From an uncultured bacterium (lineage in GTDB: Bacteria; Lernaellota; Lernaellaia; Lernaellales; Lernaellaceae), in the NCBI GenBank assembly GCA_964511015.1, contig CAZEDX010000002.1, positions 197 through 64,196 on the forward strand: a stretch of DNA of 64,000 nucleotides, given 5' to 3'. The notes under the pieces are model-generated. The model was not told the DNA's origin and searched no databases. It saw only the letters and a list, made by a program, of their open reading frames with translations. Made by a program: the position numbers and the translations under genes. Positions within the stretch are counted from its first letter, which is position 1, and each line of letters opens with the position of its first letter. Below, piece by piece: positions 23,686-40,178 of this stretch.

Positions 23686-23689
<4 letters not shown>

Positions 23690-24546
23690 CTGACTCTCCT
23701 TGCCGTTCCCCAACGCGCCGCGATGTTGAGCAACAACACTGCGGCCATGATCAACAGCGATGCGCCCCAGGCGATCTGCTGCCAATCGGCAAACGGCGAC
23801 ATGGCATAGTTGAATATGGTGACGGTCAGATTGGCCGTCGGTTGCGCCAACGACGACGGCCAGAAGCTGCTGTTGAGCGCGGTAAACAACAAAGGCGCGG
23901 TCTCGCCGCTGATGCGCGCAACCGACAGCAACATGCCGGTGATCAACCCGGTGCGGGCTGCTCGAAAAACCACCCCCAAGGTGACCTTCCAGCGTGGCGC
24001 GCCTAGCGCCAGGGCTGATTCGCGCAAGGCGTTCGGCACTAGCAGCAACATGTCCTCGGTGGTACGCGCGACGACGGGTAACATAATGATCGCTAGTGAC
24101 ACGGCACCGGCGTAACCACTGAAATGGCCGACCGGTTTGACCATCACGGTGTAGACGAATAGCCCGACGATAATCGAGGGCATTCCCATGACCAGATTGA
24201 CGCCGAAACGAACCATAGCGCTGAAGCGTCCGTAGCGGCCGAATTCCGCCAGATAGATGCCAGACAACACTCCGACCGGCACCCCGAGCGCGGTACCGAT
24301 GAGCGTCATCAGCAGGGTGCCAACCAAGGCATTGGCCACCCCTCCACCCGGCATCCCCGGCGGCGCCGGCAACTCCACGAAAAAGGACCAGTTAATGGCA
24401 GCGACACCACGTTGAATAACTACCCAGAGAATCCAACCCAAAAAGAAAATCCCCGCCGCCGCGGCCAGCGTCGCAACGCAATTAACCATCCAATTAATTG
24501 CGATACGCGGGGTGCTAGAACGATGGGGTATCGGCTTGCTGGTCAT
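23686..24546 (-). CDS. pstA: Phosphate ABC transporter permease PstA
   Basis: 6-TM BPD permease with the EAA-like loop. The start at 24546 overlaps the pstC stop (ATGA). The longer ORF to 24588 is possible. Confidence 0.85.
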
Positions 24547-25487: not shown

Positions 25488-25547
25488 CTCACAGACCTCT
25501 CTCCGATTCAGGCAGTGCACCGTCCATCCTTGAATGACGTCACCAAG

Positions 25548-26597
25548 CTAGGGCCAGACCGGATTGCCGCCTGCGCGAATCTCGGCATTCCAGGATTCCT
25601 CCACCAGAGTGACGATGTTCAACGGCATTGGCACGTAGTGCAGGTTGCGGGCGAGATCGGCACCGTAACGGAATCCCCAGTCGAAAAACTTCAGCATCTC
25701 CTTTGCCTTAGCGGCATCCGACTGTTGCCGGTGCAAGAGGATGAAGGTCGCACCGGTAATCGGCCACGTACCGGCGCCAGGCTGGTTGGTCAACACCATG
25801 TAAAAGCCGGGAGCATTAGCCCAGTCGGCATTGGCCGCGGCCGCCTGGAACGACTGAATCGTCGGTTGAACAAAGACACCGGCTTGATTCTGCAGGGCCG
25901 TATGGACCATGCGGTTCTGAAGTGCATAGGCGTATTCTACGTAGCCGATCGCGCCTTTGGTCTTTTGCACAAAGGCTGCCACCCCTTCATTGCCTTTACC
26001 GCCCACGCCGACCGGCCAGGATACAGATTTGCCAAAGCCGACACGCTGATGCCATTCGGCTGAGACCTTGTCCAAATAGTTGGTGTAAATCCATGTAGTT
26101 CCGGAACCGTCCGACCGATAGACGACTGTAATTGCCAAATCGGGCAGCGCCACGCCCGGATTCAGCGTTTTCAAAACCGGGTCGTTCCACTTGACTATTT
26201 TTCCGAGGTAGATGTTGCTCAAAGCCACAGGGGACAAGCGAATCTGTCCTGCTTTGACCCCGGGCACGTTGATCACCGTGACTACCCCTCCAACAACCAT
26301 CGGGAATTGGGTTAAACCGGCCGCGTCTAGCTCGTTTTTATCCAACGGCGCGTCGGAACCGGCGAAGTCCACCGTCTTGGCCTTGATCTGGGCAATGCCG
26401 CCGCCAGACCCGATTGACTGGTAGTTGACTTGGACACCGGCGAGTTTCTGGTATTTGAAGGCCCATTGGGCATATAACGGATAAGGGAAACTGGCCCCTG
26501 CGCCATTCAGGGTGACCGCCGCGTACAATAGGGATCCGCCAACTACGAATAGAACAAAGGCCGCCAAGCCGACAAGAATCCAACCTTTATGTCTCAT
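25548..26597 (-). CDS. pstS: Phosphate-binding protein PstS
   Basis: Signal peptide followed by a periplasmic phosphate-binding fold (NGAGASFPYPLY...SGTT). Heads the pst operon. Confidence 0.9.
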   Translation of the reverse strand: MRHKGWILVGLAAFVLFVVGGSLLYAAVTLNGAGASFPYPLYAQWAFKYQKLAGVQVNYQSIGSGGGIAQIKAKTVDFAGSDAPLDKNELDAAGLTQFPMVVGGVVTVINVPGVKAGQIRLSPVALSNIYLGKIVKWNDPVLKTLNPGVALPDLAITVVYRSDGSGTTWIYTNYLDKVSAEWHQRVGFGKSVSWPVGVGGKGNEGVAAFVQKTKGAIGYVEYAYALQNRMVHTALQNQAGVFVQPTIQSFQAAAANADWANAPGFYMVLTNQPGAGTWPITGATFILLHRQQSDAAKAKEMLKFFDWGFRYGADLARNLHYVPMPLNIVTLVEESWNAEIRAGGNPVWP

Positions 26598-26712: not shown

Positions 26713-27046
26713 CATTTGCTTCTCTTCTCCGTCAATCAGATTGCGCAAAACACCTATTGGTCGCTCGTGCGCCTGCCGATACCAAGACTAGCGAGAAGGT
26801 ATATTCGGGAGCAGTCGGTCTATCTCGGGCAAAAATGAACGGACAAGAGTCGATGGAACGCGTAACGCTTGACTGCGAATGGCGGTTGTCGGATTCTGGT
26901 TTGGGGCATCAAAAGCTCACGCGAAAAATGCATCTTAGCTAACCTCCGGATCGGGATTCGGTGCCTCCAACGGCTTGTTACAGACCGTTCTTGACGAGGT
27001 ATTGAAGAAATATCGTTTGGGTCAAGGCCGAGGGGAAGCCGATACG

Positions 27047-29908
27047 ATGGACGAGGCAGCAAAAAATCGGCGTCGTTCGGAACTAGCGGCGGCCAAGGAG
27101 CGCATCGCTGAACTGGAGGCCCAACTCGCCGAGGCGCAAGCTCAAGCCACTAAGTACCTTCTCTTCCACGACACTTTCTTTTCCCTATTTGAGTTGACCA
27201 GTGCGGGGGTCGGTCTGATCCAGGACCACGCAATCATTTATGCGAACGACCGTTTAGGGCAGTTGTTGGGTCGGCCACCGGCAGAGATCCTCGGTCATCA
27301 TTTCACAGACTTCGTGGTGCCAGAACAACGCGAATGGCTCGCCGGTCTGTACGCGGCACATCTCGGTGGCAACAATGAGATCGACTGGACTACAGCGGCG
27401 TTGTTGAACAGCGATGGTTCGCCGGTGGACGTCGAACTGGAAGCTGCGGTGATCCGATACGACGGTAAGCCTACCGAGGTCGTGCTGGTTCGTGATATCC
27501 GGCGTCGCATCCGCGCCGAGCGCCTGTTACGTGATTCCGAAGAACGCTTCCGCATCGCCGCTTCGATTGCCGGCGACCTGATTTTCGAATGGACCTTGGA
27601 GGACAACCAGGTACGCTGGTTCAGCGATATCGACCGTTTGCTCGGCTACGAACCGGGCGGCTTCCCGCGTGAAGTGGCCGCGATGAACCAGCAAATCCAC
27701 CCCGACGACCGCGAACGCTTCTACCAAGCGGCGATGGAGTCCATCCGTACAGGTAATCCGTTTCGCGAGGAATACCGTCTGCGAAAGAAAAACGGCGAAT
27801 ACATTTATGTTTCCAGTCGTGGAATCGTGGTACACGATCGCGATGGTTGGCCGATCAAGTGGATCGGTGTGAACACGGACATTACCGAGCAACGCACAGC
27901 CGCTGATTCGCTGGCGGAATCACAAAGATACCTGGCCAATATCATCGACTTCCTGCCGGATGCCACGTTGGTCATCAACCACGAAGGCCGCGTCATCGCC
28001 TGGAACCGGGCGATGGAAGAGATGACCAGTGTTCCAGCCAAGGACATGCTCGGCAAAGGTAATTACGAATACGCGCTCCCCTTCTATGGCGAACGCCGCC
28101 CGATTCTAGTCGACATGGTGATGCAGAGACACCCGGAATTCGAGGCTCGTTATTCCGCCATTGTACGCAAAGACGAGACAATCTGGGGCGAGGCGTACAC
28201 GCCTTTCCTGGGCGGCGGGAAGATGTACCTTTCGGCCACGGCTGCGGTACTGCGAGATTCCAAAGGCAATGTCGCCGGGGCCATCGAGTCCATTCGGGAC
28301 AATACCGAACGTCAACAGGCCCAGGAAGCATTGCGCGCCAGCGAAGAAAAATTTCGCGCCTTAGCCGAGGGTTCGGCGGACGTCATCATGCGGTTCGACA
28401 CCGACTTCCGCCATGTCTATGTCAACCCCGCCGTCGAGGCCCAAACCGGCATTCCGCCAGCGGATTTTATAGGTAAAACCCATGCGGAATTGGGCTTCCC
28501 GCCACACCTGGTCGAGATCTTCGAAACCGCTCTGCACAAGACCGTCGAAACCCGCTCACCCAATCGTGTTGAATTCGAGTTGCCGAAACACATCTGGATA
28601 GACTGGGTGTTGACGCCGGAGTTTGGTCCTGACGGAAAGGTACAAGGGGTGATGACCGCCGCGCGTGACATCACCAACCTTAAGAACATTGAAAAGGCGT
28701 TGCAGGACAGTTTGGACCTGCTCGAAATGCGTGTGGCCGAACGAACCGCCGAACTCAGAGCACTCAATGAGTCGATGCAGATTGAAATCGCCGAACGCAA
28801 GCGCGCCGAAGAGTCTTTGCGCCGCAGCGAAGAGCGTTTTCGCTTTATGTCCTTCCACGACGCCATGACTGGCCTGTTCAACCGTACCTATTTCGACGAC
28901 AAAATGAAAGAGATCGACCAACAACTTGCCACGCTCTCCCCCCTGGCGATCATGGTCATGGACGTGGATGGACTAAAAATCGTCAACGACACATTGGGTC
29001 ACTCTGCCGGTGACGCGCTGCTGAACGCGGCGGCACGGGCGATCGGGCGTTCTTTCTCCGACGGTGCCATTCTCTGTCGCGTCGGTGGTGATGAATTCTG
29101 CGCCCTGTTGCCCGGAGTCGGTTGGGATGAAGCGGCGGCCAAACGCGATCAGATTCTAGAAAACGTACACTCGATTCAAGGCGAAAGTGAGGGGCCACGG
29201 CTGAGCCTCTCGATCGGCGTGGCTTGTTCGCTCGGTCACGAACGCGAAACCGCTTATGACGTATACCAGCGCGCCGATGAAGACATGTACCACTACAAAA
29301 TGATGCAGATCGGAAGCCCCAAGAGCCGCTTGATCGATGCCTTGTTGACCGCTCTGTCCCAGCGAGACTATGTCGCACAGGGACATGTGGAGCGACTGGC
29401 ACGGATAGCACGCATGATGGCCGACCGCCTTCGCCTACCGGAAAATCGCAAGAAAGATCTGTTGCTTTTGGCCAGAATGCACGATTTGGGAAAAATGGGC
29501 GTACCGGACCACATTCTATTCAAACCGGCGGCTTTGGATGATGCCGAATTCGATGCAATCAAAAAGCACGCTCACATCGGCCATAAAATCGCGACGCGGT
29601 CGCGAGAGCTTTCGCACATCGCGGCGCTTATTCTGCACCATCATGAATGGTGGGACGGCTCGGGCTATCCCTCCCACCTGCGTGCGGAGGCCATCCCACT
29701 CGAATGTCGCATCTTACATATTGCCGACGCTTTCGATGCCATGACCAATCCCCGGCCTTATCGCGGACCGCTAACAGGACGGGAAGCGATCGCCGAACTA
29801 ACGCGTAAGGCGGGCACCCAATTTGACCCCCATTTGGTGGAATGTTTTATTGAGCTGTACGATCAAGGGTTCTTCCGTGTAACACCCACTCCCGACAAAA
29901 ACCAGTAG
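27047..29908 (+). CDS. PAS/PAC-sensor protein with GGDEF (diguanylate cyclase) and HD-GYP (phosphodiesterase) domains
   Basis: ATG at 27047 has GAGGGGAAG 8 nt upstream; the track's TTG at 26975 is less likely. At least 4 PAS modules. GGDEF motif RVGGDEF. HD-GYP motifs HDLGKMGVP and HHHEWWDGSGYP. Confidence 0.9.
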   Translation: MDEAAKNRRRSELAAAKERIAELEAQLAEAQAQATKYLLFHDTFFSLFELTSAGVGLIQDHAIIYANDRLGQLLGRPPAEILGHHFTDFVVPEQREWLAGLYAAHLGGNNEIDWTTAALLNSDGSPVDVELEAAVIRYDGKPTEVVLVRDIRRRIRAERLLRDSEERFRIAASIAGDLIFEWTLEDNQVRWFSDIDRLLGYEPGGFPREVAAMNQQIHPDDRERFYQAAMESIRTGNPFREEYRLRKKNGEYIYVSSRGIVVHDRDGWPIKWIGVNTDITEQRTAADSLAESQRYLANIIDFLPDATLVINHEGRVIAWNRAMEEMTSVPAKDMLGKGNYEYALPFYGERRPILVDMVMQRHPEFEARYSAIVRKDETIWGEAYTPFLGGGKMYLSATAAVLRDSKGNVAGAIESIRDNTERQQAQEALRASEEKFRALAEGSADVIMRFDTDFRHVYVNPAVEAQTGIPPADFIGKTHAELGFPPHLVEIFETALHKTVETRSPNRVEFELPKHIWIDWVLTPEFGPDGKVQGVMTAARDITNLKNIEKALQDSLDLLEMRVAERTAELRALNESMQIEIAERKRAEESLRRSEERFRFMSFHDAMTGLFNRTYFDDKMKEIDQQLATLSPLAIMVMDVDGLKIVNDTLGHSAGDALLNAAARAIGRSFSDGAILCRVGGDEFCALLPGVGWDEAAAKRDQILENVHSIQGESEGPRLSLSIGVACSLGHERETAYDVYQRADEDMYHYKMMQIGSPKSRLIDALLTALSQRDYVAQGHVERLARIARMMADRLRLPENRKKDLLLLARMHDLGKMGVPDHILFKPAALDDAEFDAIKKHAHIGHKIATRSRELSHIAALILHHHEWWDGSGYPSHLRAEAIPLECRILHIADAFDAMTNPRPYRGPLTGREAIAELTRKAGTQFDPHLVECFIELYDQGFFRVTPTPDKNQ

Positions 29909-30022: not shown

Positions 30023-33000
30023 TTGAGGACATTTTTATTCACCACTGCGCTTGATTGGGGAGGGCGCATGGCGAAGCATCCTGGCATCTGGTCGCGGCGA
30101 ACAGACAGCGAAGGCTATTGGAATCTCTTGCTGGTTACCGCGCTGGCAATAGCCGTTCTCCTTTTTCTGTTACGATCTAATGCAGTCAATCTTGACGAAT
30201 TCTGGCTTGCGTTCCTGTTTGAATACGTCGTCGCACTCTGGATTTCCTTCTCCATGCCCACGACACGTGTTATCACGTTGGCCTTGGTCGGAGCAGGGGT
30301 CGGCTGCGGCACCGAATTCACCGCTGCTCACGCGGAGTTGTGGACCTACGCCAACGACGTCGGTGTCGTCGCCGGCATTTTGATCTACAGCCTTACTGCG
30401 ATCGCGCTATTCGGCTTGGTCTATGTCATTAACCGTGTGCTGGCCCACCACAAATTCTTTCGGGCTACCGCCTGGGGCAATAGCCTGATCGTCCTGCTAT
30501 TGTTTCTGAGCCTATTCGCCTGGGCATATGGCCAAGAAAACAACCAATACTGGGCCAATATCTTTGCTCATCCAGTGGTGGTGATCTACTACTTCTTCCT
30601 GTTTCTTTTTGCGGTGACCATCGCATACTGCCTTCGGCTGAGTGCCTTGCTGGCAATCATCGCCGCGGCGGTGTTGGTCAGTCTCGTCGGACAGACGGCC
30701 GGCGGCATCTGGGCCGGGATCTGGCGATTCCTGCCCACTGCGCCAAAACCGGTCACCAGTCCACCCGACTACCTGGTCTACGCCTTGTGGCCGCTGGAGT
30801 ATTTTGTCGAGTTCGGATTCTCGGCCTTCCTGAGCGATCTGTTGATATATCTTTTCAAGGTTCGCCCGGAGCGCAATGGGAAAGACAATAAAGATCCGCA
30901 TCTTCCCATCCCTTTCTGGGATTGGAGCCATCCGGAAGGCCGGGTCGCCGGGCTGACTCGCGAAACCGGTCACTCCCTGGTTAAAATGTTGCGGCGCACG
31001 CCAGAAACCGGCGAGTTGATCGTGGCGATGGTTGGGCCGCTGGTCGTTTTCCTGTCCCTATTTCCCGAGCATCATTGGCGCCCCAGCCCCGGTGCGGCGA
31101 TCGCAAGCGCGGCGGTCTTTGGCATCGCACTGTTCGTCTCGTCGCGCCCCTACTGGAAGCGGACGGCGGCGCTGGTTGTCGGCGGTCTGGTATTCGGGGG
31201 TATGATCTGGATCGCGGCGGAAATGAAAGTACTTGGAGAAGCGCCGACGTTGCACTTGACCGCCCTGCCCTTGTCCGCGTTGCTTTTGGTGTCGATCTAC
31301 GGACTGGCGCATCTGACCACGCAGCTCTTTGCGCGACTGTTACCGGCCCAAAAGGAATGGGAGGACCATGGCGAGCCTAAACGGGCAGTCGTGTCGGTCG
31401 TGACGATTCTGATGCTGATCATTGTCGCCTTGTTTGTCTGGAATCCGGCATTCCTGTTTCCAGATCCCCACGCCGAGCCGGCCGGTGCGCCTGCGCTGTT
31501 CGTGTTCGGTTTTGGCGTGCTGCTGATCTTCACCCTTTGGTGGTACTTTTTTATGGTGCCGCTGCGGCGTAGTGCCATTCAGACCGTGGTTGCGGCACTG
31601 GCGACAGTTGTCTTCTTGCTGCCGATCGACTGGCGCGACGGACAGTTGGCCTGGCAACGTCTATTGTGGCAATCGGTCGGTCTAGTCATCGCTTATCTTT
31701 TTGTTTTTACAACCAGCGCACATGTGGCCAATGAACCATTGGCCAAAGCGATTCGGCGTACTTACTGGTGGCGGCGATGCGCCGGCAAGCGCGAGGTTGT
31801 ATTCCATGACAAACCGCACCAACAGGGTCGGCATCGAGTACTCGACAAAGATACCGGCGTGATGCACACCTACCCGCCAAAGGAGACCGGCGTCAGCGTT
31901 GCTGTAGCCACGCAACCCGAAGAGCCGGGGCAAACATTACCGACAATTCGGGAAACAGTCAGGTTGGCACTTGAACAACTCCGTGGGCACTGGCCAAAAC
32001 CCGGCACCACCGACCAGACGGTGGAAAAGGTCAAAGAAGCGGTGGCCGGCAAGACGGTCTTCATCAAACCGAACATCGTCGTGCCTACCGGCAGCCCCTA
32101 TACGACCGATGCGGACCTCGTCGACGAAGTTGCCAAGTACTGCCTTGAACACGGCGCCGCGAAGGTGCTGATCGGCGAAATCGCCATCAGCAACATTACT
32201 TCGCGCATGTCGCTGGTGGGTACCGGCGTGTACGACTACTGGAAACGAAGAAATGGCGTAGAGGTACACCTGCTTGATGAGGAAATGCTGATCCGCGTGC
32301 ACCTCAGCGACGATCCGGGTAACAAAATTCACCCCGCCGACCCGACGGGCGCGCCTGATCCGCAATGCCCCGTTCCAGCCGAAACGCAAAACCGGGTCGT
32401 CTTCAATCAGTTTCACATGCCGTATTTGATGGTCGACGCCGACACCTTCTTCATCGATATCCCGAAGATGAAAACGCACTTACAGTCGGCGGTCACGCTG
32501 GGCATCAAGAACTCCCACGGCGCCATCGCCGAGTGCGACCGCGGCTGCAAACACCAGCAGATCTCGCAGAAGGTGGTCGACATCACCAAGGTGTGGCTGC
32601 CTGATTTGACAATCGTCGACGGCTACGATGCGTTGGAAGGCATCGGACCCTGGCCTGGCGATCTAGTGCCGCTACGCGCCGTGATTGCCTCCAATGACGT
32701 GGTCGCCGCCGACCTCGTGGCCGGCCAGATGATGTGGAAAGAGCCGGTGGAGGGTAGAACGCCGGCCGAGAGTGCTCCCGATTTCCGCTCGCCGGTCGAT
32801 TTCGACACGAAGTTTGTCAAGACGACCTGGCTGGGCTACGAGCAGCGGCTGGGCCTACTCGATCCACGCGCGGTGAAATACGACTATTCCACCAACGACC
32901 CAGACTGGAACACCTTCCTGAGGAGACACTGCTACGAGCGGCCGTTCCGCGATCCGGACTACTGCGACGAAGGCCTGATTATGAACATCGGCCAGCGAGT

Positions 33001-33538
33001 CGGCGGCGAAGTCGATTTCGCCACGAAACCGTTGGTGCAAGAATATGATCCGCTGGAAAACAAATGGCTCAAGTGGCCGGCCAATCGCGAGTACCTGCCG
33101 CTCAGGGTAAACACTATCGTGCCCCCTTTCCCGGCGCTGCAGCAACCCACGCGTGCCTGGGGTCCGGCGCAAATGATCGCCGACGAATTCCGCTTCCCCG
33201 ACCTTGGTTCGTCGGTGATGTTCTCCGGCGTTTTCGGCCTGATGAAATGCGTGTTGGAGGACCACTTCACCCGCGAACTGAACGTACTGGACGGCTTCGC
33301 CATTGTGTATGGCCCGCTACGGAAGCCGCTGGTCTGCGAGGGCGCCATTCTGTTTGGCGACGGCGCAATCTCTACCGAATACCTGGTGTTCTCGCCGCGC
33401 ATCTACCCGTTGGCGGGCAAGGGCAAACCGCCAAACCGATACTCCGACATCTTCGAGCGCTTGTCGCAGGAGCTGGGTGGCAAGATTCTTAGCTTCGCTA
33501 CCGAAGCCATCACCGCCACCCGAGGATGGTACTGGTAA
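30023..33538 (+). CDS. Giant polytopic membrane protein (~14 predicted TM helices, aa 1-600) fused to a cytoplasmic DUF362 domain plus ~270-aa C-terminal extension
   Basis: Long hydrophobic helices throughout the N-terminal 600 aa. DUF362 hallmark VFIKPNIVVP...TDADLV...IDIPKMKTHLQSAVTLGIKNSHG...IVDGYDALEGIGPWPGD...IASNDVVAADLV. Alternative start is the ATG at 30068 (GGGGAGGG upstream). Confidence 0.8.
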   Translation: MRTFLFTTALDWGGRMAKHPGIWSRRTDSEGYWNLLLVTALAIAVLLFLLRSNAVNLDEFWLAFLFEYVVALWISFSMPTTRVITLALVGAGVGCGTEFTAAHAELWTYANDVGVVAGILIYSLTAIALFGLVYVINRVLAHHKFFRATAWGNSLIVLLLFLSLFAWAYGQENNQYWANIFAHPVVVIYYFFLFLFAVTIAYCLRLSALLAIIAAAVLVSLVGQTAGGIWAGIWRFLPTAPKPVTSPPDYLVYALWPLEYFVEFGFSAFLSDLLIYLFKVRPERNGKDNKDPHLPIPFWDWSHPEGRVAGLTRETGHSLVKMLRRTPETGELIVAMVGPLVVFLSLFPEHHWRPSPGAAIASAAVFGIALFVSSRPYWKRTAALVVGGLVFGGMIWIAAEMKVLGEAPTLHLTALPLSALLLVSIYGLAHLTTQLFARLLPAQKEWEDHGEPKRAVVSVVTILMLIIVALFVWNPAFLFPDPHAEPAGAPALFVFGFGVLLIFTLWWYFFMVPLRRSAIQTVVAALATVVFLLPIDWRDGQLAWQRLLWQSVGLVIAYLFVFTTSAHVANEPLAKAIRRTYWWRRCAGKREVVFHDKPHQQGRHRVLDKDTGVMHTYPPKETGVSVAVATQPEEPGQTLPTIRETVRLALEQLRGHWPKPGTTDQTVEKVKEAVAGKTVFIKPNIVVPTGSPYTTDADLVDEVAKYCLEHGAAKVLIGEIAISNITSRMSLVGTGVYDYWKRRNGVEVHLLDEEMLIRVHLSDDPGNKIHPADPTGAPDPQCPVPAETQNRVVFNQFHMPYLMVDADTFFIDIPKMKTHLQSAVTLGIKNSHGAIAECDRGCKHQQISQKVVDITKVWLPDLTIVDGYDALEGIGPWPGDLVPLRAVIASNDVVAADLVAGQMMWKEPVEGRTPAESAPDFRSPVDFDTKFVKTTWLGYEQRLGLLDPRAVKYDYSTNDPDWNTFLRRHCYERPFRDPDYCDEGLIMNIGQRVGGEVDFATKPLVQEYDPLENKWLKWPANREYLPLRVNTIVPPFPALQQPTRAWGPAQMIADEFRFPDLGSSVMFSGVFGLMKCVLEDHFTRELNVLDGFAIVYGPLRKPLVCEGAILFGDGAISTEYLVFSPRIYPLAGKGKPPNRYSDIFERLSQELGGKILSFATEAITATRGWYW

Positions 33539-34824
33539 TGGTCACCCCTCAACTGTTCAACGATGACCTAGCGCTGAAGGAATGGTTTTACGTCTACTAC
33601 ATCAAATGGATGGAAGTTGCCGAGAATGGGCGCTGGATGGCAGAGGGGCGCGGAATTAAGAACCCTTTGGTCTGGATTCCTCTCATGCCTTTCGGTCAAC
33701 AGCCGGCCGAACCATTCCACTACCTATTGACCGCATTGATCGACGCGCAACTGTGCAAGGTCGCACATAAACCGACCCACCGCTATGGCGGCGTCGGGAA
33801 TATGGCGACGATCATCGTCGACCCGCCGTCATCCAATCCGAGCGGGCCGGTGCCGTTCGTCATGTTCGAAGAAGTGGATGGCGGCATCGTCACCGACTAT
33901 CGCATGTACCCCAACGTGAACTGGCCAACGGCGGCGCGGCAACTGCAAATCGAGGGCTTTGATACCGCTGGCTGCTATCGCAAGTTTGTGCACACCTCCT
34001 TCCTGCGCCAGATCTACGAACTCCATCAGCAATGGCTGACCGACAGCGACAACGCGCGCTATCTGATCGGTTTCGCGGTCGCCCTGTTCAAGGCCCTGGA
34101 CAAGAAGAAGGCAAATGTCGATCCGCGGCCGCCGATGTTGGCCAACCTGCTAGCGGTGAAGAAGCAGATCAAGGTCGGCGACATCGACGTGGGCGGTACG
34201 TTGCTCAAGTACGCCCACCTGATGCCGAATCTGATTATCGAAGGACGCGGCGGCGACATGTTCATCGACCTGGGTGGACGCTTCAACCTGGTGTTGACCG
34301 ATGTGGCCCTCTTGTCCCTACTCGACTGTTTCAAATTCAACAATACATTGCCCACCCTGTCCTCTTCGCTCATCGCCTTCGCGAGCCAGGGGTTGCAGCG
34401 CGGCTGGATCAAGATCGACGGCGTGCGCTGGATGTCCAAGCTTTCGGCCGTTTTCTTGCGCCGCCGCATACGGTCCCTACCGCAAAAGGTGGCCCTGCTG
34501 ACCAAGATCATGGGGAACCCCTTCCGTCTGATGTTGAGCACCAACAACAAGGGCGTCGTCATCACCTTGAAAGACGGCCTGCCCGAGTCGATCAACCCGG
34601 CGGTCTTCCCCAGCGATCCAACCGACCTGCGCGGTCTGTGGCTTCACAATTGCGAAAAGCACGGGTTCATTCATCTCGCGGCGCGGCCGCGAGGCGGCGA
34701 ACTCAGCTTGCAGTTGTCGGATCAACTCGACTATTATCCGCAAAACGATTTTGTAAAATACATTATGCGAAAAGGAGCGTTGCAATTCCTGTTCGGGTTG
34801 GTATTCCCGTTTTTGTCTGACTAG
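33538..34824 (+). CDS. Hypothetical soluble protein (428 aa), no recognisable motifs
   Basis: The ATG at 33538 overlaps the upstream stop (TAATG). Uniform coding composition, no TM segment, no recognisable domain. 6-nt gap to the next gene. Confidence 0.7.
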   Translation: MVTPQLFNDDLALKEWFYVYYIKWMEVAENGRWMAEGRGIKNPLVWIPLMPFGQQPAEPFHYLLTALIDAQLCKVAHKPTHRYGGVGNMATIIVDPPSSNPSGPVPFVMFEEVDGGIVTDYRMYPNVNWPTAARQLQIEGFDTAGCYRKFVHTSFLRQIYELHQQWLTDSDNARYLIGFAVALFKALDKKKANVDPRPPMLANLLAVKKQIKVGDIDVGGTLLKYAHLMPNLIIEGRGGDMFIDLGGRFNLVLTDVALLSLLDCFKFNNTLPTLSSSLIAFASQGLQRGWIKIDGVRWMSKLSAVFLRRRIRSLPQKVALLTKIMGNPFRLMLSTNNKGVVITLKDGLPESINPAVFPSDPTDLRGLWLHNCEKHGFIHLAARPRGGELSLQLSDQLDYYPQNDFVKYIMRKGALQFLFGLVFPFLSD

Positions 34825-34830
34825 TGGGAC

Positions 34831-37800
34831 TTGAAAACGATGGTGGGCAGGACACTCCGTAATCGCTACCAATTGCGCCACAAGATCGGCCAAGGAGGCT
34901 GGAGCGAGGTCTACGAAGCGTTCGACCTGCAAGAAAACGTGCCGGTTGTCGCTAAAATTATGGAAGCTGGCCGAGACACCACTCATGACAATATGGTGTT
35001 GTTGTTCCAGCGCGAAGCCGTGTCCCTCTTGCGCTACCACCACCGGCACATCGTCAAGATTGTTGACTTCGGCGAAGACCAAGGCTCCTGCTTCATCATC
35101 ATGGAACACGACAACGGATTGTCACTGTTCCACTACCTGACCACCCAGGAATGGCCGACCATTTCCGAAGTCGTTCGCCTGATGATCCAGATCACCGAGG
35201 CGCTGCAGTACCTGCATGCCACCGGCAGCGTGCACCAGGATCTCAAACCATCTAACTTGATTCTGAAGGACGGCCGTATTGACCAATGCAAGATCGTGGA
35301 CTTTGGCTGTGTGCTGCTGAAGAATCTCGTCTACAGTTCGACCAAGCAGATCATCACCGGCACATTCCCCTATATTTCTCCGGAACAACTCGGTGCATAC
35401 AACAACGTCGTCGACCACCGCAGCGATCTCTACTCACTCGGCGTCATCTTTTACGAGTTACTTTCCGGCACCCGTCCATTTCCGCCGGACATGACTGCCA
35501 ACGACATTCTGCAAGGACGCTTCGATCGCATCGTGCCTCCTAGCCGGCTGAATCCGCTGATCCCGGAAGTGCTCGACCGCATTGTCATGAAGCTGATCGA
35601 GCACGATCCGAAGAACCGCTATCAGACTAGTGCCGGCTTGTTGGAGGATCTGAGCCAGTACCAGATACTGTCCACGCGAACGGTCGGCTCACCGTATTTT
35701 CGCATTGGCAAAGCCGACGCGAAAGGCAATTTGGAGTTCGACGTTCCGTTAATCGGACGTGAAGAAGAGTTGGCCGATCTTCGTCAGATGTTGCAACAAG
35801 CCAAAACCAAAGGCGCAATGCTGCTGTTAGGGGGCGAGACCGGATCAGGCAAGTCGCGTTTGCTCGAAGAGTTCCGCCTGTCATTGGCCGCATCGGAGCA
35901 GATCTACCTCTTCAGCAAATGCAGCGAAAGCAATATCAACTTCCCGTATTTTCCGCTGATCCAGATCTTTCATGACTATTCCGAATACCTCTCGACCTTG
36001 TCGCCCGAGGATGCCGCGCCACACCACGCCATCATCCGCGAGGCGCTGACCCCGTTCCACACGGAGTTGGCCAACCTGGCGCCGGCCATCGTCAAACTAT
36101 TGCCACCCACTCCTCCTGCGGCTCATACTGATGACCCGACAACCCGCATGCTGCAGTTCCAGGAAAAAATTGGTGAGTTTTTCGCGACAGTTGCCGAACG
36201 CATCAAACCGTTGGTGGTAGTGTTCGAAGACATGCACTGGGCCGACGCCGGCACATGTCGTTTCTTGCAAGTGCTGACGCCGATGCTGAATGAAAGACGA
36301 AATCTGTTGTGCATTCTGTCGTACCGGTCGGAAGAGGTCGATGATCACCCGAATCTGAAAGAGCTGCTGAATCGCGTTCGGACCAACAAGGGAAACCTGG
36401 TCTGGCTGCGCGTATCACCGCTGCCACCGATGACGGTTTGGGATTTCGTCGCCACCATCGTCCCGGAGGGCACGGAAGGCTACTCCGATCTCATGCGACT
36501 GCTGATTGAGTTCGGCCGTGGCAACCCGTTGTTCTTGATCGAATTGATCCGGGCCTTAATGGTGGAAGAAGCGATCGTGCGTGATGGGACTCGTTGGCAA
36601 ATCGCCCGCGAACGATTGAACGTTCCGGCGGTCGGATTGTCGCTCGCCGAGATCATCATTCGTCGCACCAAACAGCTCTCGAACGAGTGCAAGAAGGTAC
36701 TGGGAACCGCCTCGTGCGTCGGCCGCACCTTTTCCTCACACCTGCTGGCGGACATTGTCGGCTTGCCGGTTCGCGACCTGCTTACTTATCTGGATGAAGC
36801 TCTGCGCTCGCGGCTGGTTCTGCGGCGAGGTGTGGTCGACGGTGACAACTATTCCTTCACCCACGACCGCATCCACGAGACGTTTTACCAGAGCGTCGAT
36901 CCGATTGTCCGGCGAAACTTGCATCTGCTGATCGCCCAAACGTTGGAGCGGCAGAACCAAGCCGATCCTCGTAAAGCGGTCTACGAACTCGCCTTCCACT
37001 TCCTGCGAGCCGACGAGCCTGCCCGTGCATTCCGCTATGTCTTACAGGCGGCCGATGCCGCCCAGTATTCCATGGCCATGCACCAGGCCGCGCAGTACCT
37101 GGAACAAGGGCTCGACCTATTGGGGCGTCTGCCTACCGGAGTGGATTTCCTGGCGGCTGATCCCTCCCCACTGCGCGCGGCAGTCCGACAACGCACGAAC
37201 AAACCGGTCAGTCCGCGACGCGAGTTGGAAGAACGCATCCGGGAAGACCTGGCCGATGTTTACCTGTTCATCGGCGAATACGACAAGGCTATCGAAAACT
37301 ACAATCGGGTGCGTTCGGAAGGCATGGATTTGGTCAGTCTAGCGGTCTTGGAACGGAAGATCGGTACCGTGTATGTCCGGCGCGGGGATTTGCCGTTGGC
37401 TATTGAACACTTCCACGCCGGCATACGACATCTGCGCGGTGGCATGTCCCAAACGCGCGTCGGCGCGATCGCGCACAGCATCTGGTATATGCTTTTGAAC
37501 GGCTGTCAGTTTCTGCTACCGGCCCGGTTGCGGCGCCTATGCTTTAGCCGCCGCCAACAACAGGTCAAGGAACTGGTGGCCATGTACAACCTCACCTCCT
37601 TCGCCTATTTCTGGGTGGATGTCGGACGTGCTTTGGAGGTACAGGCCAAGGCCCGCTTCCTGGTCAATTTCCTGGATCACTCGTCCGTGGTCACGCGCGT
37701 TCTCGACCAGATGATCGTATTCTGGTCACTCTTCTCGGTCGGTTGGCTGTCACGGCGCAATGCTCGGGTCAGCCAGTCGATATGCCGCGAGTTGGGTGAC

Positions 37801-38865
37801 CAGCACGCACTGGGCAACAGTCTGTACTACGAAGGCCTCTCCCATCAGTTCGCCGGCCGCCTTGAACAGGCAAGCAAGGTTTTCCAACAAGCGATAAAAA
37901 TCCATGAACAGATCGGCGCGCTGTTCGAACTGGAATTGGAATATACCTCCTATGCACAATCGTTGCGTCACATGGGCCGCCTGGACCAGGCCTGCGACTA
38001 CCTGCTGAAATCAAAAGAAATCGCCGAAGCGGTGCGTGACTTCCGGGGCATCGCCGACGCCCACTATGAGCTGGCCGAGTATTTCTACTACACCGGGAAC
38101 TTCGAAGAAGCGCGGCGCAACGTGGCGATCTGCTTCGAATACACAACCAAAGACTCCAACCCATTGTTGTATGCCATCGCCAAGCGGGTACTGGCCAAGA
38201 TCTTGCTGCGGGAAGGCAAGACCGAGCAGGCCATCGAATTGTTGGAAGAAAGCCGGCAGGTAGCCGCCGGAAGGAAACTGGCCGGGGAATACATCATCGA
38301 CAACGAGTTGAGCCTCGGCGAGGCATATTTGCGCCGGTTGAAGGAAAACCCGGAAATGTCTCCCAAGGAACGTCGCCGCACTCTACGTCGGGTGGCTTCC
38401 TTGCAGAGGCAAACACGTTTTAGTTCCTCCACTTATCGCAACTACCTTGGCTCGTCCTATCGCCTCAAAGGCCTATTGCGCGCCGCGCAACACCGGACTC
38501 GCGAAGCCCGTTTTTTCCTGGGACGGGCAGCATCCATGATGGAGCGCGCCGGCCAACTCTACGAGTTGGGCCGTACCAAAGTAGCGCTGGCCGACCTGCT
38601 CGAGTCCACCGACCAGACAGCGGCCACGCGTTTGCGGGCCGACGCATACTTGTTGTTTGAGTCCTGCAACGCACGGGGTGATATGAGGCAGTTGGCAATC
38701 TCGGCCAAGGCAATCGATCCCGGCCGGATATCGTCTCGGTTGGTGGCGGATTCGTCGCGTGGAGGTGGCTCGCCATTGGCCTCTCCCACACTCGACAGCA
38801 TTCTGGTTTCATCAAGCCGGCGCAAGGTCGACGAAAAACCCACTGAGCCGGTCTGTCAGGATTAG
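34831..38865 (+). CDS. Ser/Thr protein kinase fused to STAND/AAA ATPase and TPR-rich C-terminal region
   Basis: Kinase motifs are the Gly-loop IGQGGWSEVY, Lys VVAKIM, catalytic HQDLKPSNL (Q replaces the usual R), DFG and SPE. Walker A GETGSGKS and Walker B VVVFEDMHWAD. About 700 aa of TPR-like helical repeats follow. Confidence 0.9.
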   Translation: MKTMVGRTLRNRYQLRHKIGQGGWSEVYEAFDLQENVPVVAKIMEAGRDTTHDNMVLLFQREAVSLLRYHHRHIVKIVDFGEDQGSCFIIMEHDNGLSLFHYLTTQEWPTISEVVRLMIQITEALQYLHATGSVHQDLKPSNLILKDGRIDQCKIVDFGCVLLKNLVYSSTKQIITGTFPYISPEQLGAYNNVVDHRSDLYSLGVIFYELLSGTRPFPPDMTANDILQGRFDRIVPPSRLNPLIPEVLDRIVMKLIEHDPKNRYQTSAGLLEDLSQYQILSTRTVGSPYFRIGKADAKGNLEFDVPLIGREEELADLRQMLQQAKTKGAMLLLGGETGSGKSRLLEEFRLSLAASEQIYLFSKCSESNINFPYFPLIQIFHDYSEYLSTLSPEDAAPHHAIIREALTPFHTELANLAPAIVKLLPPTPPAAHTDDPTTRMLQFQEKIGEFFATVAERIKPLVVVFEDMHWADAGTCRFLQVLTPMLNERRNLLCILSYRSEEVDDHPNLKELLNRVRTNKGNLVWLRVSPLPPMTVWDFVATIVPEGTEGYSDLMRLLIEFGRGNPLFLIELIRALMVEEAIVRDGTRWQIARERLNVPAVGLSLAEIIIRRTKQLSNECKKVLGTASCVGRTFSSHLLADIVGLPVRDLLTYLDEALRSRLVLRRGVVDGDNYSFTHDRIHETFYQSVDPIVRRNLHLLIAQTLERQNQADPRKAVYELAFHFLRADEPARAFRYVLQAADAAQYSMAMHQAAQYLEQGLDLLGRLPTGVDFLAADPSPLRAAVRQRTNKPVSPRRELEERIREDLADVYLFIGEYDKAIENYNRVRSEGMDLVSLAVLERKIGTVYVRRGDLPLAIEHFHAGIRHLRGGMSQTRVGAIAHSIWYMLLNGCQFLLPARLRRLCFSRRQQQVKELVAMYNLTSFAYFWVDVGRALEVQAKARFLVNFLDHSSVVTRVLDQMIVFWSLFSVGWLSRRNARVSQSICRELGDQHALGNSLYYEGLSHQFAGRLEQASKVFQQAIKIHEQIGALFELELEYTSYAQSLRHMGRLDQACDYLLKSKEIAEAVRDFRGIADAHYELAEYFYYTGNFEEARRNVAICFEYTTKDSNPLLYAIAKRVLAKILLREGKTEQAIELLEESRQVAAGRKLAGEYIIDNELSLGEAYLRRLKENPEMSPKERRRTLRRVASLQRQTRFSSSTYRNYLGSSYRLKGLLRAAQHRTREARFFLGRAASMMERAGQLYELGRTKVALADLLESTDQTAATRLRADAYLLFESCNARGDMRQLAISAKAIDPGRISSRLVADSSRGGGSPLASPTLDSILVSSSRRKVDEKPTEPVCQD

Positions 38866-38894: not shown

Positions 38895-40178
38895 ATGAAG
38901 ATCGTGCTGATATCGCCGAAAGCCAAGGTGAATGAGGCCATTAAAAGCGTGACCGGTTTCCGCATCGCACAGATGAGCCTGGCGCAAGTCGCCGCTTGTA
39001 TGCCTCCGGATGTCGAAATCGAATTGGTGGACGAACTTATCCGTCCGGCGCCTCCGGATACCGACGCCGATCTCGTCGGAATTTCAGTAATGACCGAAGT
39101 GGTCGAACGAGCGTACGAAATCGCCGACGAATACCGCCGACGCGGCAAGTCCGTCATCATGGGTGGTATTCACCCCACCCTGCTGCCACAAGAAGCATTG
39201 CAACACTGCGACGCCGTCGTCGTCGGTGAGGCCGAAGGCCAGATGGAACAGCTAGTCAAGGATTTCCGCGCCCAACGCATGCGTAGCATCTACGCTCGTG
39301 ATTCATTGGCTGATCTGAAAGGCCTGCCGTGGCCACGTCGCGATCTGCTAGATCGGCGCAACTACCGAACCATCAACTGCGTTCAAGTCAGCCGCGGCTG
39401 CCCCAACCAGTGTGATTTTTGCATTGTGCCTGTGGTCCACGGACGTAAGTATCGTTCACGGCCGGTCGACGACGTGTTGGCGGAAATCGACACCCTAGAA
39501 GGTCGCGAGTTGTTTTTCGTCGACGACAATCTGGCGGGTAATCGCAAGCACGCCCTGGAATTCTTCAAGGCGTTGGCCTCGCGGAACCGGCTTTTCGTCG
39601 GCCAATTGTCAGCCACGACGCTCAAAGACGAAGAAATGCTGCGGACATTGCGGCGAGCGGGCGGAGTCGGGTTCTTCATCGGCCTGGAATCAATCTCTCA
39701 GAACACACTGGATTCGGTCGGCAAGCGCCAAAAGGCCGCGGAGTACATCGACGGTATCAAAAGGCTCCATGACCACGGTATGACAATGGCAGGAGCCTTC
39801 GTTTTCGGCTTGGATTCCGACGAGGTGGACGTTTTCGAACGCACGATCGAGTTTGTGGATAAGTCCGAAATCGACATTGTCCAGTTCACGTTGTTAACAC
39901 CCTTTCCGGGCACCCCGATCTATAAACGCCTTAGCCAGGATGGCAGACTGGTCGATCCCCAATGGTGGCTGACCAGCACATGGAATCATGTTCCATATCA
40001 ACCACTTAGATTTTCCAGACAAGAGCTTCGAGAGAAATGGATCTGGGCTCTGAAGGAGACTTACCGATTGCCCCGGGTATTCAAACGAACCACCAGATTG
40101 CTACACCGGCGGTCATTTCCGGCCAACCTGATCACCTACCGAGCCAACCTAGCTTATCGAGAAGGCTTGGCTTTCTAG
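38895..40178 (+). CDS. B12-binding domain radical SAM protein (class B radical SAM)
   Basis: AGGAAGGG upstream of the ATG. N-terminal Rossmann-like cobalamin-binding region. Radical SAM cluster motif VSRGCPNQCDFC. 29 nt downstream of the kinase gene. Confidence 0.85.
   Translation: MKIVLISPKAKVNEAIKSVTGFRIAQMSLAQVAACMPPDVEIELVDELIRPAPPDTDADLVGISVMTEVVERAYEIADEYRRRGKSVIMGGIHPTLLPQEALQHCDAVVVGEAEGQMEQLVKDFRAQRMRSIYARDSLADLKGLPWPRRDLLDRRNYRTINCVQVSRGCPNQCDFCIVPVVHGRKYRSRPVDDVLAEIDTLEGRELFFVDDNLAGNRKHALEFFKALASRNRLFVGQLSATTLKDEEMLRTLRRAGGVGFFIGLESISQNTLDSVGKRQKAAEYIDGIKRLHDHGMTMAGAFVFGLDSDEVDVFERTIEFVDKSEIDIVQFTLLTPFPGTPIYKRLSQDGRLVDPQWWLTSTWNHVPYQPLRFSRQELREKWIWALKETYRLPRVFKRTTRLLHRRSFPANLITYRANLAYREGLAF

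What the first reader, a model, noticed from the sequence alone, without database searches (positions are those of the whole stretch)
30023..33538. DUF362 domain fused to a ~600-aa multi-pass membrane domain plus a long C-terminal extension
DUF362 proteins are normally small soluble proteins, sometimes ferredoxin-fused. Here the DUF362 signature is embedded in a 1171-aa protein after about 14 TM helices and before a 270-aa tail with no recognisable motif. This is a rare architecture and could anchor the unknown DUF362 activity at the membrane. Start-codon choice (TTG 30023 vs ATG 30068) is unresolved.
Basis: partly seen in the sequence, partly recalled or inferred. Interest (0 to 1): 0.6.

Follow-up and report, generated by a model that had tools for sequence, protein, structure and literature searches.

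The report
Membrane-anchored, cysteine-less DUF362 protein operon
A real but rare 1156-residue bacterial membrane protein joins 16 membrane helices to an uncharacterised enzyme-like domain distantly related to lactate racemase, and it always sits next to the same unknown partner gene and to signalling enzymes, which gives a testable lead to a protein family whose function nobody knows.

Summary
ORF 30068..33538 (+), starting at the ATG, encodes 1156 aa. It has about 16 TM helices (aa 17-553), then a cytoplasmic DUF362 domain (Pfam E=4e-30).

The "motif-less tail" is not an extension. Its last ~125 aa are the C-terminal subdomain that ordinary ~400-aa DUF362 proteins also carry. There it holds four Cys in a NuoB-like GDCA...GCPP pattern. 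All four are lost in this family, and a ~135-aa insert precedes it.

The membrane part is a tandem duplication of a new 8-TM module (hhalign E=3e-10). That module also occurs, C-terminally, in a second, probably archaeal class of DUF362 fusions (E=8.5e-11). The soluble model matches only LarA-like nickel-pincer enzymes in the PDB (Foldseek E=3.7e-4).

The family is rare: 13 hits at E<=1e-30 among 1.84 billion representatives.

Its neighbourhood is conserved. An unknown partner gene is translationally coupled to it. Next comes a soluble signalling enzyme with an interchangeable head: Ser/Thr kinase or nucleotide cyclase on an AAA16-TPR chassis, or a PAS histidine kinase. Clade A adds a B12-radical-SAM gene.

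Best guess (about 0.35): the protein and its partner are a membrane-anchored ligand- or cofactor-binding input module for these signalling enzymes. Function is untested.

The parts
30059..30064 (+). Shine-Dalgarno-like GGAGGG, 3 nt before ATG 30068
   Evidence: Sequence read directly. It lies inside the TTG-30023 extension and therefore argues for the ATG start.
30068..33538 (+). Fusion gene, 1156 aa (P0001): 16 TM helices + cytoplasmic DUF362 + Cys-less C-terminal subdomain
   Evidence: ORF. Identical 1156-aa NCBI protein. Full-length homologues at 41-49% identity.
30185..30871 (+). First 8-TM module (aa 40-268), built as 4+4 helices. Family-invariant residues: R67, G79, W92, Y94, G208, G213, W219, W241, P242. 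E82 and E244 are conserved in most members. TM1 (aa 17-37) precedes it.
   Evidence: Invariant columns. pLDDT 80-94. hhalign against the C-terminal TM module of P0084/86/111: probability 97%, E=8.5e-11, with reversed and shuffled controls at E 0.5-0.95. First half against second half: E=7e-6.
30887..31006 (+). Basic cytoplasmic linker between the two TM modules (aa 274-313; 10 K/R), containing an amphipathic helix
31007..31726 (+). Second, more diverged 8-TM module (aa 314-553). Invariant residues: R365, G377, Y411, G412, S550.
   Evidence: hhalign of the first module against the second: probability 96.8%, E=3e-10. Helices in the model. Only a sub-threshold Pfam MFS_1 hit (E=0.004, 16.5 bits against a cut-off of 33.4).
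31727..32056 (+). Cytoplasmic neck (aa 554-663). It contains a clade-A-conserved His-rich beta element, FHDKPHQQGRHR...MHTYPP (aa 578-601, nt 31799-31870).
   Evidence: Alignment. pLDDT about 96 in the soluble model.
32057..32722 (+). DUF362 (PF04015) domain, aa 664-885. It keeps the residues that are nearly invariant across the family: K667-P-N669, K802-T803, K814-N815, H829, D838, D851, D882. H804 is also invariant within this family. It includes a window-specific, low-confidence, Pro-rich loop at aa 752-778.
   Evidence: Pfam E=4.1e-30. Nearly invariant columns in 112 sequences. Foldseek best PDB matches are LarA-like NPN enzymes 9q3j and 9q3k (E=3.7e-4, probability 1.0).
32750..33157 (+). 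Family-specific insert (aa ~895-1030) between the DUF362 core and the C-terminal subdomain. It is partly low-confidence in the model.
   Evidence: Absent from ~400-aa DUF362 proteins and shorter in clades B and C. pLDDT 35-65 over part of it.
33158..33535 (+). C-terminal subdomain (aa ~1031-1156), homologous to the 4-Cys, NuoB-like subdomain of ordinary DUF362 proteins. The Cys positions here are D1045, S1048, G1099 and K1120. Motifs: VYGPL..P, LFGDGA, PPN, RGWYW.
   Evidence: Cys-column census. Consensus G..C.GC...GDCA...GCPP. Weak profile hits to NdhK/NuoB/PSST (E 0.3-2.7).
33538..34824 (+). Partner gene, 428 aa, no known domain. Its ATG overlaps the fusion's stop codon (TAATG).
   Evidence: NCBI protein P0151, 428 aa. 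Homologues lie directly downstream of the fusion in L002, L005, L006, L010-L014, L093 and L095-L097. One also follows a soluble Cys-less DUF362 gene in L015. No Pfam, NCBIfam, PADLOC or PDB match.
34831..38865 (+). Soluble Ser/Thr kinase-AAA_16-TPR protein (1344 aa), starting 6 nt after the partner
   Evidence: Pfam. No TM segment. Orthologues in L002, L010 and L093. The same chassis carries a class III cyclase head in L013, L014 and L095.
38895..40178 (+). B12-binding radical SAM protein (427 aa), starting 29 nt after the kinase. It is the last gene of the apparent operon.
   Evidence: Pfam. Below every NCBIfam cut-off. Orthologues at 43-68% identity in L010, L013, L014, L093 and L095.
26975..29908 (+). 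Upstream PAS-GGDEF-HD-GYP c-di-GMP protein (977 aa). It is a possible member of the neighbourhood, not a proven one.
   Evidence: Pfam. An FHA-GGDEF gene occupies the same position in L093 and L094.

Best explanation
The gene encodes the membrane subunit of a conserved two-protein module: a Cys-less DUF362 protein plus an unknown ~430-600-aa partner.

Shown:
- The protein is a tandem pair of a previously undescribed 8-TM module.
- This is followed by a cytoplasmic LarA-superfamily (DUF362) domain. That domain keeps the nearly invariant polar residues of the DUF362 family, but has lost the four-Cys site of ordinary DUF362 proteins.
- The partner gene is translationally coupled to it.
- The pair is followed by a soluble signalling enzyme whose output head varies: a Ser/Thr kinase or a nucleotide cyclase on one AAA16-TPR chassis, or a PAS histidine kinase in a distant clade.

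Inferred:
- The DUF362 domain binds a small ligand or cofactor in a LarA-like pocket (H804, K814, H829). Because it has no electron-relay cluster, it does so without net redox turnover.
- The first TM module, whose conserved residues cluster toward the periplasmic side, couples that pocket to a membrane or periplasmic cue or substrate.
- The state of the fusion-partner complex is read by the repeat or PAS sensor part of the neighbouring signalling enzyme, which then acts through kinase, cAMP/cGMP or c-di-GMP outputs.
- The B12-radical-SAM enzyme may make or modify the ligand or cofactor.
For: Architecture.

TM duplication, and homology with a second class of TM-DUF362 fusions in a different domain order: with reversed and shuffled controls. 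This is a Rosetta-stone-type argument that the TM module and DUF362 work together.

LarA relationship:
- Same Pfam clan, CL0471 (PMC11770544).
- The only significant PDB fold matches are LarA-like NPN enzymes.
- Two hhalign runs were not significant, but both aligned H804 to LarA His174 and K814 to LarA Lys184. The roles of those LarA residues are taken from PMC11770544.

Loss of the Cys4 site: 0 of 10 family members have any of the four Cys, against 82 of 102 soluble relatives with all four.

Partner coupling: start and stop overlap by 1-14 nt in the window, L005, L006, L011, L012, L093 and L015. The pair also exists without the TM domain in L015.

Constant input genes with a variable output head:
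- Ser/Thr kinase in the window, L002, L010 and L093.
- Cyclase in L013, L014 and L095, and nearby in L012.
- PAS histidine kinase in L005, L006, L096 and L097.

The AAA16-TPR proteins have no TM segment, so the fusion is the only polytopic membrane protein in the cluster. GGDEF genes lie upstream in two lineages, one of them with an FHA domain that would read phospho-Thr.
Against: - No experiment exists for any DUF362 protein. None was found in the paper library.
- Signalling genes beside an operon can simply be its regulators.
- The window is generally rich in signalling genes, which raises the chance of incidental adjacency here, though not in the other loci.
- L011 and L004 lack an adjacent kinase, and L004 also lacks the partner.
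- Retention of every invariant DUF362 residue, together with a conserved radical SAM gene, fits an enzyme at least as well as a sensor.
- The residue mapping onto LarA rests on non-significant sequence alignments. No residue-level structural superposition could be obtained.
- No larB, larC or larE gene is present in the 64-kb window.
- The topology is inferred from hydropathy and charge alone.
Confidence: 0.35

Rival explanations
1. Membrane-associated biosynthetic or modifying enzyme complex. The TM modules give access to a lipid or other membrane-bound substrate. The DUF362 domain catalyses a redox-neutral, LarA-like isomerisation or another group transformation. The B12-radical-SAM enzyme methylates or cross-links the same substrate. 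The partner is an accessory subunit, and the kinase or cyclase merely regulates the operon.
For: - All nearly invariant DUF362 residues are retained.
- The B12-radical-SAM gene is conserved at 43-68% identity in five clade-A lineages and sits 29 nt after the kinase gene in the window.
- Its nearest, sub-threshold NCBIfam models include lipid-modifying class B enzymes: BchE, the ladderane lipid rSAM, HpnJ and HpnR.
- LarA relatives are enzymes.
Against: - The radical SAM gene is absent from clade-B loci, which keep the fusion, partner and kinase.
- Its NCBIfam scores are far below every cut-off, so no substrate class is indicated.
- This reading does not explain why the head domain of the adjacent AAA16-TPR protein is swapped while its position stays fixed.
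Confidence: 0.3
2. Secondary transporter or channel with a cytoplasmic DUF362 domain that gates it, or that processes the transported solute.
For: - It has 16 TM helices built from repeated units, with conserved membrane-embedded Arg and Glu residues.
- The top, non-significant, Foldseek PDB hits are MFS and MATE transporters.
- There is a weak Pfam MFS_1 hit on the second module (E=0.004).
Against: - No hit is significant: best Foldseek E=0.11, TM-scores 0.1-0.2, and the MFS_1 score is half the gathering cut-off.
- With an even helix count per unit (4+4, twice), the repeats would be parallel, not the inverted repeats typical of secondary transporters. This is an inference.
- The soluble form of the module in L015 works without any TM part.
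Confidence: 0.12
3. The long ORF is an annotation or assembly artefact: two genes fused by a sequencing error, or a decaying pseudogene.
For: Two relatives have the gene split near the TM/DUF362 junction: L010 (591+569 aa) and L011 (688+469 aa).
Against: - At least nine independent assemblies carry the uninterrupted fusion, with conservation along its whole length.
- In L010 the partner gene is also broken, which points to frameshift errors in that assembly.
- Both AlphaFold2 models are confident (pTM 0.79 and 0.87).
Confidence: 0.02

Closest known systems
Ordinary soluble DUF362 proteins (Pfam PF04015, ~300-450 aa)
   Same: - The DUF362 core is the same, with the same nearly invariant residues: KPN, K-T(-H), KN, H, D, D.
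- The C-terminal subdomain has the same layout.
- The nearest soluble relatives, P0012 and P0013, are also Cys-less. One such gene (L015) has the same partner gene downstream.
   Different: - About 570 aa of membrane domain precede the core.
- A ~135-aa insert precedes the C-terminal subdomain.
- The four Cys present in 82 of 102 soluble relatives are all missing.
- The operon with signalling genes is conserved.
- The function of the parent family is itself unknown.
LarA / DUF2088 lactate-racemase superfamily (nickel-pincer nucleotide enzymes; PDB 5HUQ, 9Q3J, 9Q3K)
   Same: - Same Pfam clan, CL0471 (PMC11770544).
- These are the only significant PDB fold matches (E=3.7e-4, probability 1.0, about 280 aligned columns).
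- A His-x9-Lys pair (H804, K814) aligns with LarA catalytic His174 and the NPN-tethering Lys184.
   Different: - No DUF2088 Pfam hit, and no sequence-level significance.
- TM-scores are low, 0.26-0.32.
- The equivalents of Arg75, His108 and His200 are unresolved.
- No lar biosynthesis genes are in the window.
- LarA enzymes are soluble.
NuoB / NdhK / PSST-type [4Fe-4S] domain (complex I subunit B; by my own recollection also the [NiFe]-hydrogenase small subunit)
   Same: The C-terminal subdomain of ordinary DUF362 proteins carries the pattern vilvGdCA...pGCPP. This aligns with the cluster-N2 motif region of NdhK, NuoB and PSST chains.
   Different: - The match is weak (E 0.3-2.7).
- In this family none of the four Cys survives (LFGDGA, GKPPN), so no cluster can be bound in the same way.
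Second class of membrane DUF362 fusions (P0084, P0086, P0111, P0136; 743-872 aa; P0086 sits in an archaeal-type gene context)
   Same: They contain a homologous 8-TM module with the repeated E..G....W.Y motif, fused to DUF362.
   Different: - The domain order is reversed: a short N-terminal TM segment, then DUF362, then the 8-TM module.
- The 8-TM module is present once, not twice.
- P0086 has no partner or kinase gene beside it; its neighbours are housekeeping genes plus a CooT gene.
AAA16-TPR (STAND-type) signalling proteins with kinase or cyclase heads, such as the TOMM kinase/cyclase fusion model TIGR03903
   Same: The neighbouring gene matches TIGR03903 over the AAA16-TPR part (E=1e-70, but 239 bits against a cut-off of 706). 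It shows the same kinase/cyclase head interchange.
   Different: This describes the neighbour, not the fusion. No TOMM biosynthesis genes were seen in the window.

Membership tests
DUF362 (Pfam PF04015) | Full-length match to the family HMM above the gathering score | tested here: met
   105.8 bits against a cut-off of 24, E=4.1e-30, profile positions 1-198 of 200. All full-length homologues also match.
DUF362 (Pfam PF04015) | Family-wide nearly invariant polar residues (KPN; K-T; KN..G; H; D; D) | tested here: met
   K667, P668, N669, K802, T803, K814, N815, G818, H829, D838, D851 and D882 are present. They are at least 90% conserved across 112 aligned sequences.
Typical full-length DUF362 protein with the 4-Cys C-terminal subdomain | Four conserved Cys (C..C, GDCA, GCPP) | tested here: not met
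   The positions are D1045, S1048, G1099 and K1120. None of the 10 family members has a Cys at any of them; 82 of 102 soluble relatives have all four.
LarA / lactate racemase superfamily (DUF2088, NPN-dependent) | Match to the DUF2088/LarA sequence models | tested here: not met
   No Pfam or NCBIfam LarA hit. No PDB sequence hit to LarA. hhalign E=0.24-0.3.
LarA / lactate racemase superfamily (DUF2088, NPN-dependent) | LarA-like fold | tested here: met
   The top four Foldseek PDB hits are 9q3j and 9q3k (E=3.7e-4 to 3.4e-3, probability 0.99-1.0). TM-scores are only 0.26-0.32. Pfam places both families in clan CL0471.
LarA / lactate racemase superfamily (DUF2088, NPN-dependent) | NPN-binding and catalytic residues (Arg75, His108, His174, Lys184, His200 of LarA1) | tested here: inconclusive
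   H804 and K814 align to His174 and Lys184 in two non-significant hhalign runs. H829 lies 15 residues after K814, against 16 for His200 after Lys184 in LarA. Arg75 and His108 are unresolved. No residue-level structural alignment was available.
LarA / lactate racemase superfamily (DUF2088, NPN-dependent) | Co-occurrence with the NPN biosynthesis genes larB, larC and larE | not testable with these tools
   None is present in the 64-kb window. The rest of the genome is not available.
Major facilitator or other known secondary transporters | Significant sequence or fold match to a transporter family | tested here: not met
   MFS_1 scores 16.5 bits against a cut-off of 33.4. Best Foldseek PDB hit is E=0.11, with TM-scores 0.1-0.2.
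Known anti-phage defence systems (PADLOC) | Match of the fusion or the partner to a defence-protein model | tested here: not met
   No hit for the fusion or the partner. The kinase matches only through its generic kinase domain.

The most novel reading that the evidence does not exclude
A new kind of signalling input. A LarA-fold pocket that binds a cofactor or ligand is tethered to a previously undescribed duplicated 8-TM module and paired with an unknown partner protein. This unit acts as a detachable sensor that plugs into STAND-type kinases and cyclases, or into histidine kinases. If so, this would be the first functional context for the DUF362 family, and possibly a non-racemase use of a nickel-pincer-like site.
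Probability: 0.25. Interest if true: 0.75.

Novelty: new variant of a known kind. Interest (0 to 1): 0.5.

Why it matters
DUF362 is a large family found in bacteria and archaea. I found no experimentally defined function for it in the paper library. This subfamily offers several handles on it:
- A fixed cellular location, at the cytoplasmic face of the membrane.
- A natural loss of the putative Fe-S site, which separates the LarA-like pocket from any electron-transfer role.
- An obligate-looking partner protein.
- A conserved link to signalling enzymes and to a B12-radical-SAM enzyme.

Each of these can be tested directly, through cofactor analysis, K814/H804 mutants, interaction assays, and mutant metabolomics or phosphoproteomics. 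The duplicated 8-TM module has no Pfam model and no fold match among solved structures, so it is an uncharacterised membrane family in its own right.

Tried and rejected
Searches and tools that led nowhere:
- Word-indexed homologue searches with the whole protein and with the TM alignment returned only the query itself or P0005. The 8000-candidate limit was reached in both, probably filled by common hydrophobic words. The exhaustive phmmer search was needed instead.
- An exact look-up of the window's own protein found no contig. Relatives come from 'delta proteobacterium' MAGs and from an Olavius symbiont bin.
- Pfam at E<=10 on the two TM halves and on the tail found nothing usable.
- NCBIfam gave only a sub-threshold Npun_F2552 hit (50 bits against a cut-off of 500).
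- The partner has no match in Pfam, NCBIfam, PADLOC or PDB. Weak SurA and ubiquitin hits (E 0.01-1) were dismissed as chance.

Ideas considered and rejected:
- A defence-system reading was rejected.
- An artefactual gene fusion was rejected (see the rival explanations).
- hhalign of the DUF362 profile against LarA, with one and with three sequences, was not significant. I use it only as a lead for residue mapping.
- Promoter and terminator scans were at chance level.
- tblastn of the TM modules against 150 loci that carry ordinary DUF362 genes found no separately encoded copy of the module next to them.

Full report

A single ORF runs from 30023 to 33538 on the + strand. Pfam finds one domain, DUF362 (PF04015), at E=4.1e-30 and 105.8 bits against a cut-off of 24. 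It covers almost the whole profile, at aa 679-900 of the TTG version, which is aa 664-885 from ATG 30068.

Hydropathy gives about 16 membrane segments between aa 17 and 553. An AlphaFold2 model of aa 1-568 (9-sequence alignment, pLDDT 75.8, pTM 0.79) shows 16 long helices. K/R residues concentrate in alternate loops: the N-terminus, aa 121-132, 264-313, 360-364, 416-435, 497-501, and the segment after TM16. This implies an N-in, C-in topology with a cytoplasmic DUF362 part. That is an inference from the positive-inside rule, not from a dedicated predictor.

The start-codon question resolves in favour of ATG 30068:
- A GGAGGG sits 3 nt upstream, inside the TTG extension.
- The public NCBI protein is the 1156-aa version.
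- Homologues start at the equivalent position.

**2. How rare is it, and is the fusion genuine?**

An exhaustive phmmer search of 1.84 billion cluster representatives found 2360 proteins at E<=0.001, but only 13 at E<=1e-30. They fall into these groups:
- Full-length relatives at 48-49% identity: P0002, P0003, P0004.
- More distant full-length ones of 941-1047 aa: P0008, P0009, P0010, P0011.
- Fragments or split genes: P0005, P0006, P0007.
- Two soluble 399-aa proteins: P0012, P0013.

A scan of one genome per GTDB species found two full-length relatives. One is an uncultured 'delta proteobacterium' MAG (L013). The other is the Olavius algarvensis symbiont Delta 3 (L014). A metagenome scan added L095, L096 and L097.

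The fusion is therefore real and recurrent, but rare. Two loci have the gene split near the junction between the TM region and DUF362 (L010, L011). In L010 the partner gene is also broken, so frameshift errors are the likely cause.

**3. The membrane part**

None of it matches Pfam, even at E<=10. The model has no significant match among solved structures: best Foldseek E=0.11, TM-scores 0.1-0.2.

Profile-profile comparison gives three results:
- aa 40-268 and aa 300-560 are homologous to each other (probability 96.8%, E=3e-10). The 16 helices are therefore a tandem duplication of an 8-TM module.
- The two halves of the first module resemble each other (probability 84%, E=7e-6), giving a 4+4 structure.
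- The first module is homologous to the C-terminal membrane domain of a second class of DUF362 fusions, P0084, P0086 and P0111 (probability 97%, E=8.5e-11). Reversed and column-shuffled controls gave E=0.5-0.95.

In that second class the order is a short TM segment, then DUF362, then the 8-TM module. P0086 lies among archaeal housekeeping genes. Two independent fusions of the same membrane module to DUF362, in different orders, argue that the two parts work together.

Invariant residues in the first module are R67, G79, W92, Y94, G208, G213, W219, W241 and P242, with E82 and E244 conserved in most members. Under the inferred topology, the W.Y motifs and the WPLE motif lie toward the periplasmic side. 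This placement is an inference.

**4. The soluble part**

A model of aa 575-1156 (112-sequence alignment) is confident: pLDDT 82.6, pTM 0.87. Its only significant PDB matches are LarA-like nickel-pincer-nucleotide enzymes, 9q3j and 9q3k (E=3.7e-4, probability 1.0, about 280 columns, TM-score 0.26-0.32). This agrees with Pfam, which places DUF362 and DUF2088/LarA in one clan (PMC11770544).

Sequence methods do not reach LarA. hhalign against the verified 5HUQ sequence, and against three LarA sequences, is not significant (E=0.24-0.3). Both runs nevertheless place H804 on LarA His174 (catalytic) and K814 on Lys184 (the lysine that tethers the cofactor). H829 follows K814 by 15 residues, where His200 follows Lys184 by 16. 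I treat this as a lead only.

**5. The 'tail'**

Ordinary ~400-aa DUF362 proteins continue past the Pfam domain into a C-terminal subdomain. Its consensus is G..C.GC ... GDCA ... GCPP. A profile of the alignment weakly hits the cluster-N2 region of NdhK, NuoB and PSST (E=0.3-2.7). This fits the old note (from my own recollection of the Pfam entry, not a tool result) that DUF362 occurs in iron-sulfur proteins.

The last ~125 aa of the window protein align to this subdomain (VYGPL..P, LFGDGA, PPN). The four Cys columns, however, read D1045, S1048, G1099 and K1120. No family member has a Cys at any of them, whereas 82 of 102 soluble relatives have all four and 10 have none.

The tail is thus a degenerate, Cys-less version of a normal DUF362 feature, preceded by a ~135-aa family-specific insert that is partly low-confidence. 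The nearest soluble relatives, P0012 and P0013, are also Cys-less.

**6. The neighbourhood**

In the window the four genes are tightly packed:
- The fusion and the partner overlap (TAATG).
- The partner and the kinase gene are 6 nt apart.
- The kinase gene and the radical SAM gene are 29 nt apart.
- The next gene is on the other strand.

The 428-aa partner has no match in any library. Yet a homologue follows the fusion in every lineage with enough downstream sequence, except L004.

Gene order by clade:

| Clade | Loci | Third gene | Fourth gene |
|---|---|---|---|
| A | window, L002, L010, L093 | soluble AAA16-TPR protein with a Ser/Thr-kinase head | B12-radical-SAM in the window, L010 and L093; in L002 only a distant one on the opposite strand |
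| A | L013, L014, L095 (cyclase also nearby in L012) | same chassis with a class III nucleotide-cyclase head | B12-radical-SAM in L013, L014 and L095 |
| B | L005, L006, L096, L097 | PAS histidine kinase | none seen |

The B12-radical-SAM orthologues in clade A are 43-68% identical.

A GGDEF protein lies upstream in the window (PAS-GGDEF-HD-GYP) and in L093/L094 (FHA-GGDEF).

In L015, a Micrarchaeota bin, a soluble Cys-less 398-aa DUF362 gene is followed by a partner homologue that overlaps it by 14 nt and ends ...FYPKNEFV. The conserved core is therefore the Cys-less DUF362 plus the partner. The membrane domain is an addition.

**7. What it most likely does**

Shown: the architecture, the duplication, the LarA-type fold, the loss of the Cys site, the coupled partner, and the recurring signalling neighbour with an interchangeable output.

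Inferred: without the Cys4 site, the domain cannot relay electrons the way typical DUF362 proteins presumably do. It either binds a ligand or cofactor, or performs a redox-neutral reaction as LarA does.

The pattern of constant upstream genes with a variable output head, together with the fact that the fusion is the only polytopic membrane protein in the cluster, makes a membrane-anchored input module for the neighbouring signalling enzyme my preferred reading (about 0.35).

A membrane-associated biosynthetic complex working with the radical SAM enzyme is nearly as likely (about 0.3). A transporter with a cytoplasmic DUF362 domain is less supported (about 0.12). An artefact is effectively excluded.

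**8. Novelty and verdict**

Public annotation carries only the DUF362 Pfam label for this protein and gives it no name. I found no paper on the function of DUF362.

I class the finding as a new variant of a known but uncharacterised family. It is membrane-anchored, Cys-less and partner-dependent, with a new duplicated 8-TM module and a conserved link to signalling genes.

Interest is moderate (0.5). Nothing here overturns current knowledge, but it gives concrete experiments for an orphan family.

**Limits**
- The structure was predicted in two pieces.
- No AlphaFold-database search was possible.

Noticed in passing
window 31799-31870 (aa 578-601 of the fusion): A His-rich element, FHDKPHQQGRHR...MHTYPP, is conserved in clade A only. 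It is modelled as beta strands with pLDDT about 96. It could be a metal site. It is absent from clade B and from soluble DUF362 proteins.
   Followed up: partly
window 32321-32401 (aa 752-778): A window-specific, Pro-rich, 27-aa loop is inserted in the DUF362 domain (pLDDT about 53). No homologue has it.
   Followed up: partly
L010 10001-13448 and 13457-14720; L011 2745-6181: The fusion gene is split into two overlapping ORFs near the TM/DUF362 junction in two metagenome assemblies. In L010 the partner gene is split too. These are probably frameshift errors, but genuine split versions are not excluded.
   Followed up: partly
L175 3216-3404: A CooT gene (Pfam PF10133, CooT) lies two genes from the archaeal TM-DUF362 fusion P0086. 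CooT is, by my own recollection, a nickel-binding protein, which is curious given the LarA (nickel-pincer) relationship. This is a single instance.
   Followed up: no
L012 3319-4614 and L013 6496-7911: A further conserved gene with no Pfam match (431 and 471 aa, 53% identical) lies directly upstream of the fusion in two cyclase-type loci. It is absent from the window.
   Followed up: partly
window 2243-5440: A 1065-aa protein has an N-terminal PilZ (c-di-GMP receptor) domain and matches to SAM-methyltransferase models over two separate stretches (aa ~730-785 and ~907-1046). This is an unusual combination.
   Followed up: no
window 5437-8043 and 17503-22029 (-): Two large hybrid sensor kinases. 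One has two HisKA/HATPase units around a receiver domain. The other, 1508 aa, has a PocR-like domain, at least five PAS domains, a kinase and a receiver. The window is very rich in signalling genes.
   Followed up: no
window 22128-26597 (-): A complete pst phosphate-uptake operon (PstS-like binding protein, two permeases, ATPase, PhoU) lies just upstream. The same synteny is seen in the closest relative, L010.
   Followed up: partly
window 42461-44230 and 55025-56653: Two PMT_2-type (dolichyl-phosphate-mannose-like) membrane glycosyltransferase homologues. Several small ORFs without any Pfam match lie at 40272-42266.
   Followed up: no
L001 1233-3752; L002 14436-15698: Metallophosphoesterase genes, one fused to a Ras/Roc GTPase domain, occur next to the module in two lineages. 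This is another type of signalling neighbour.
   Followed up: no
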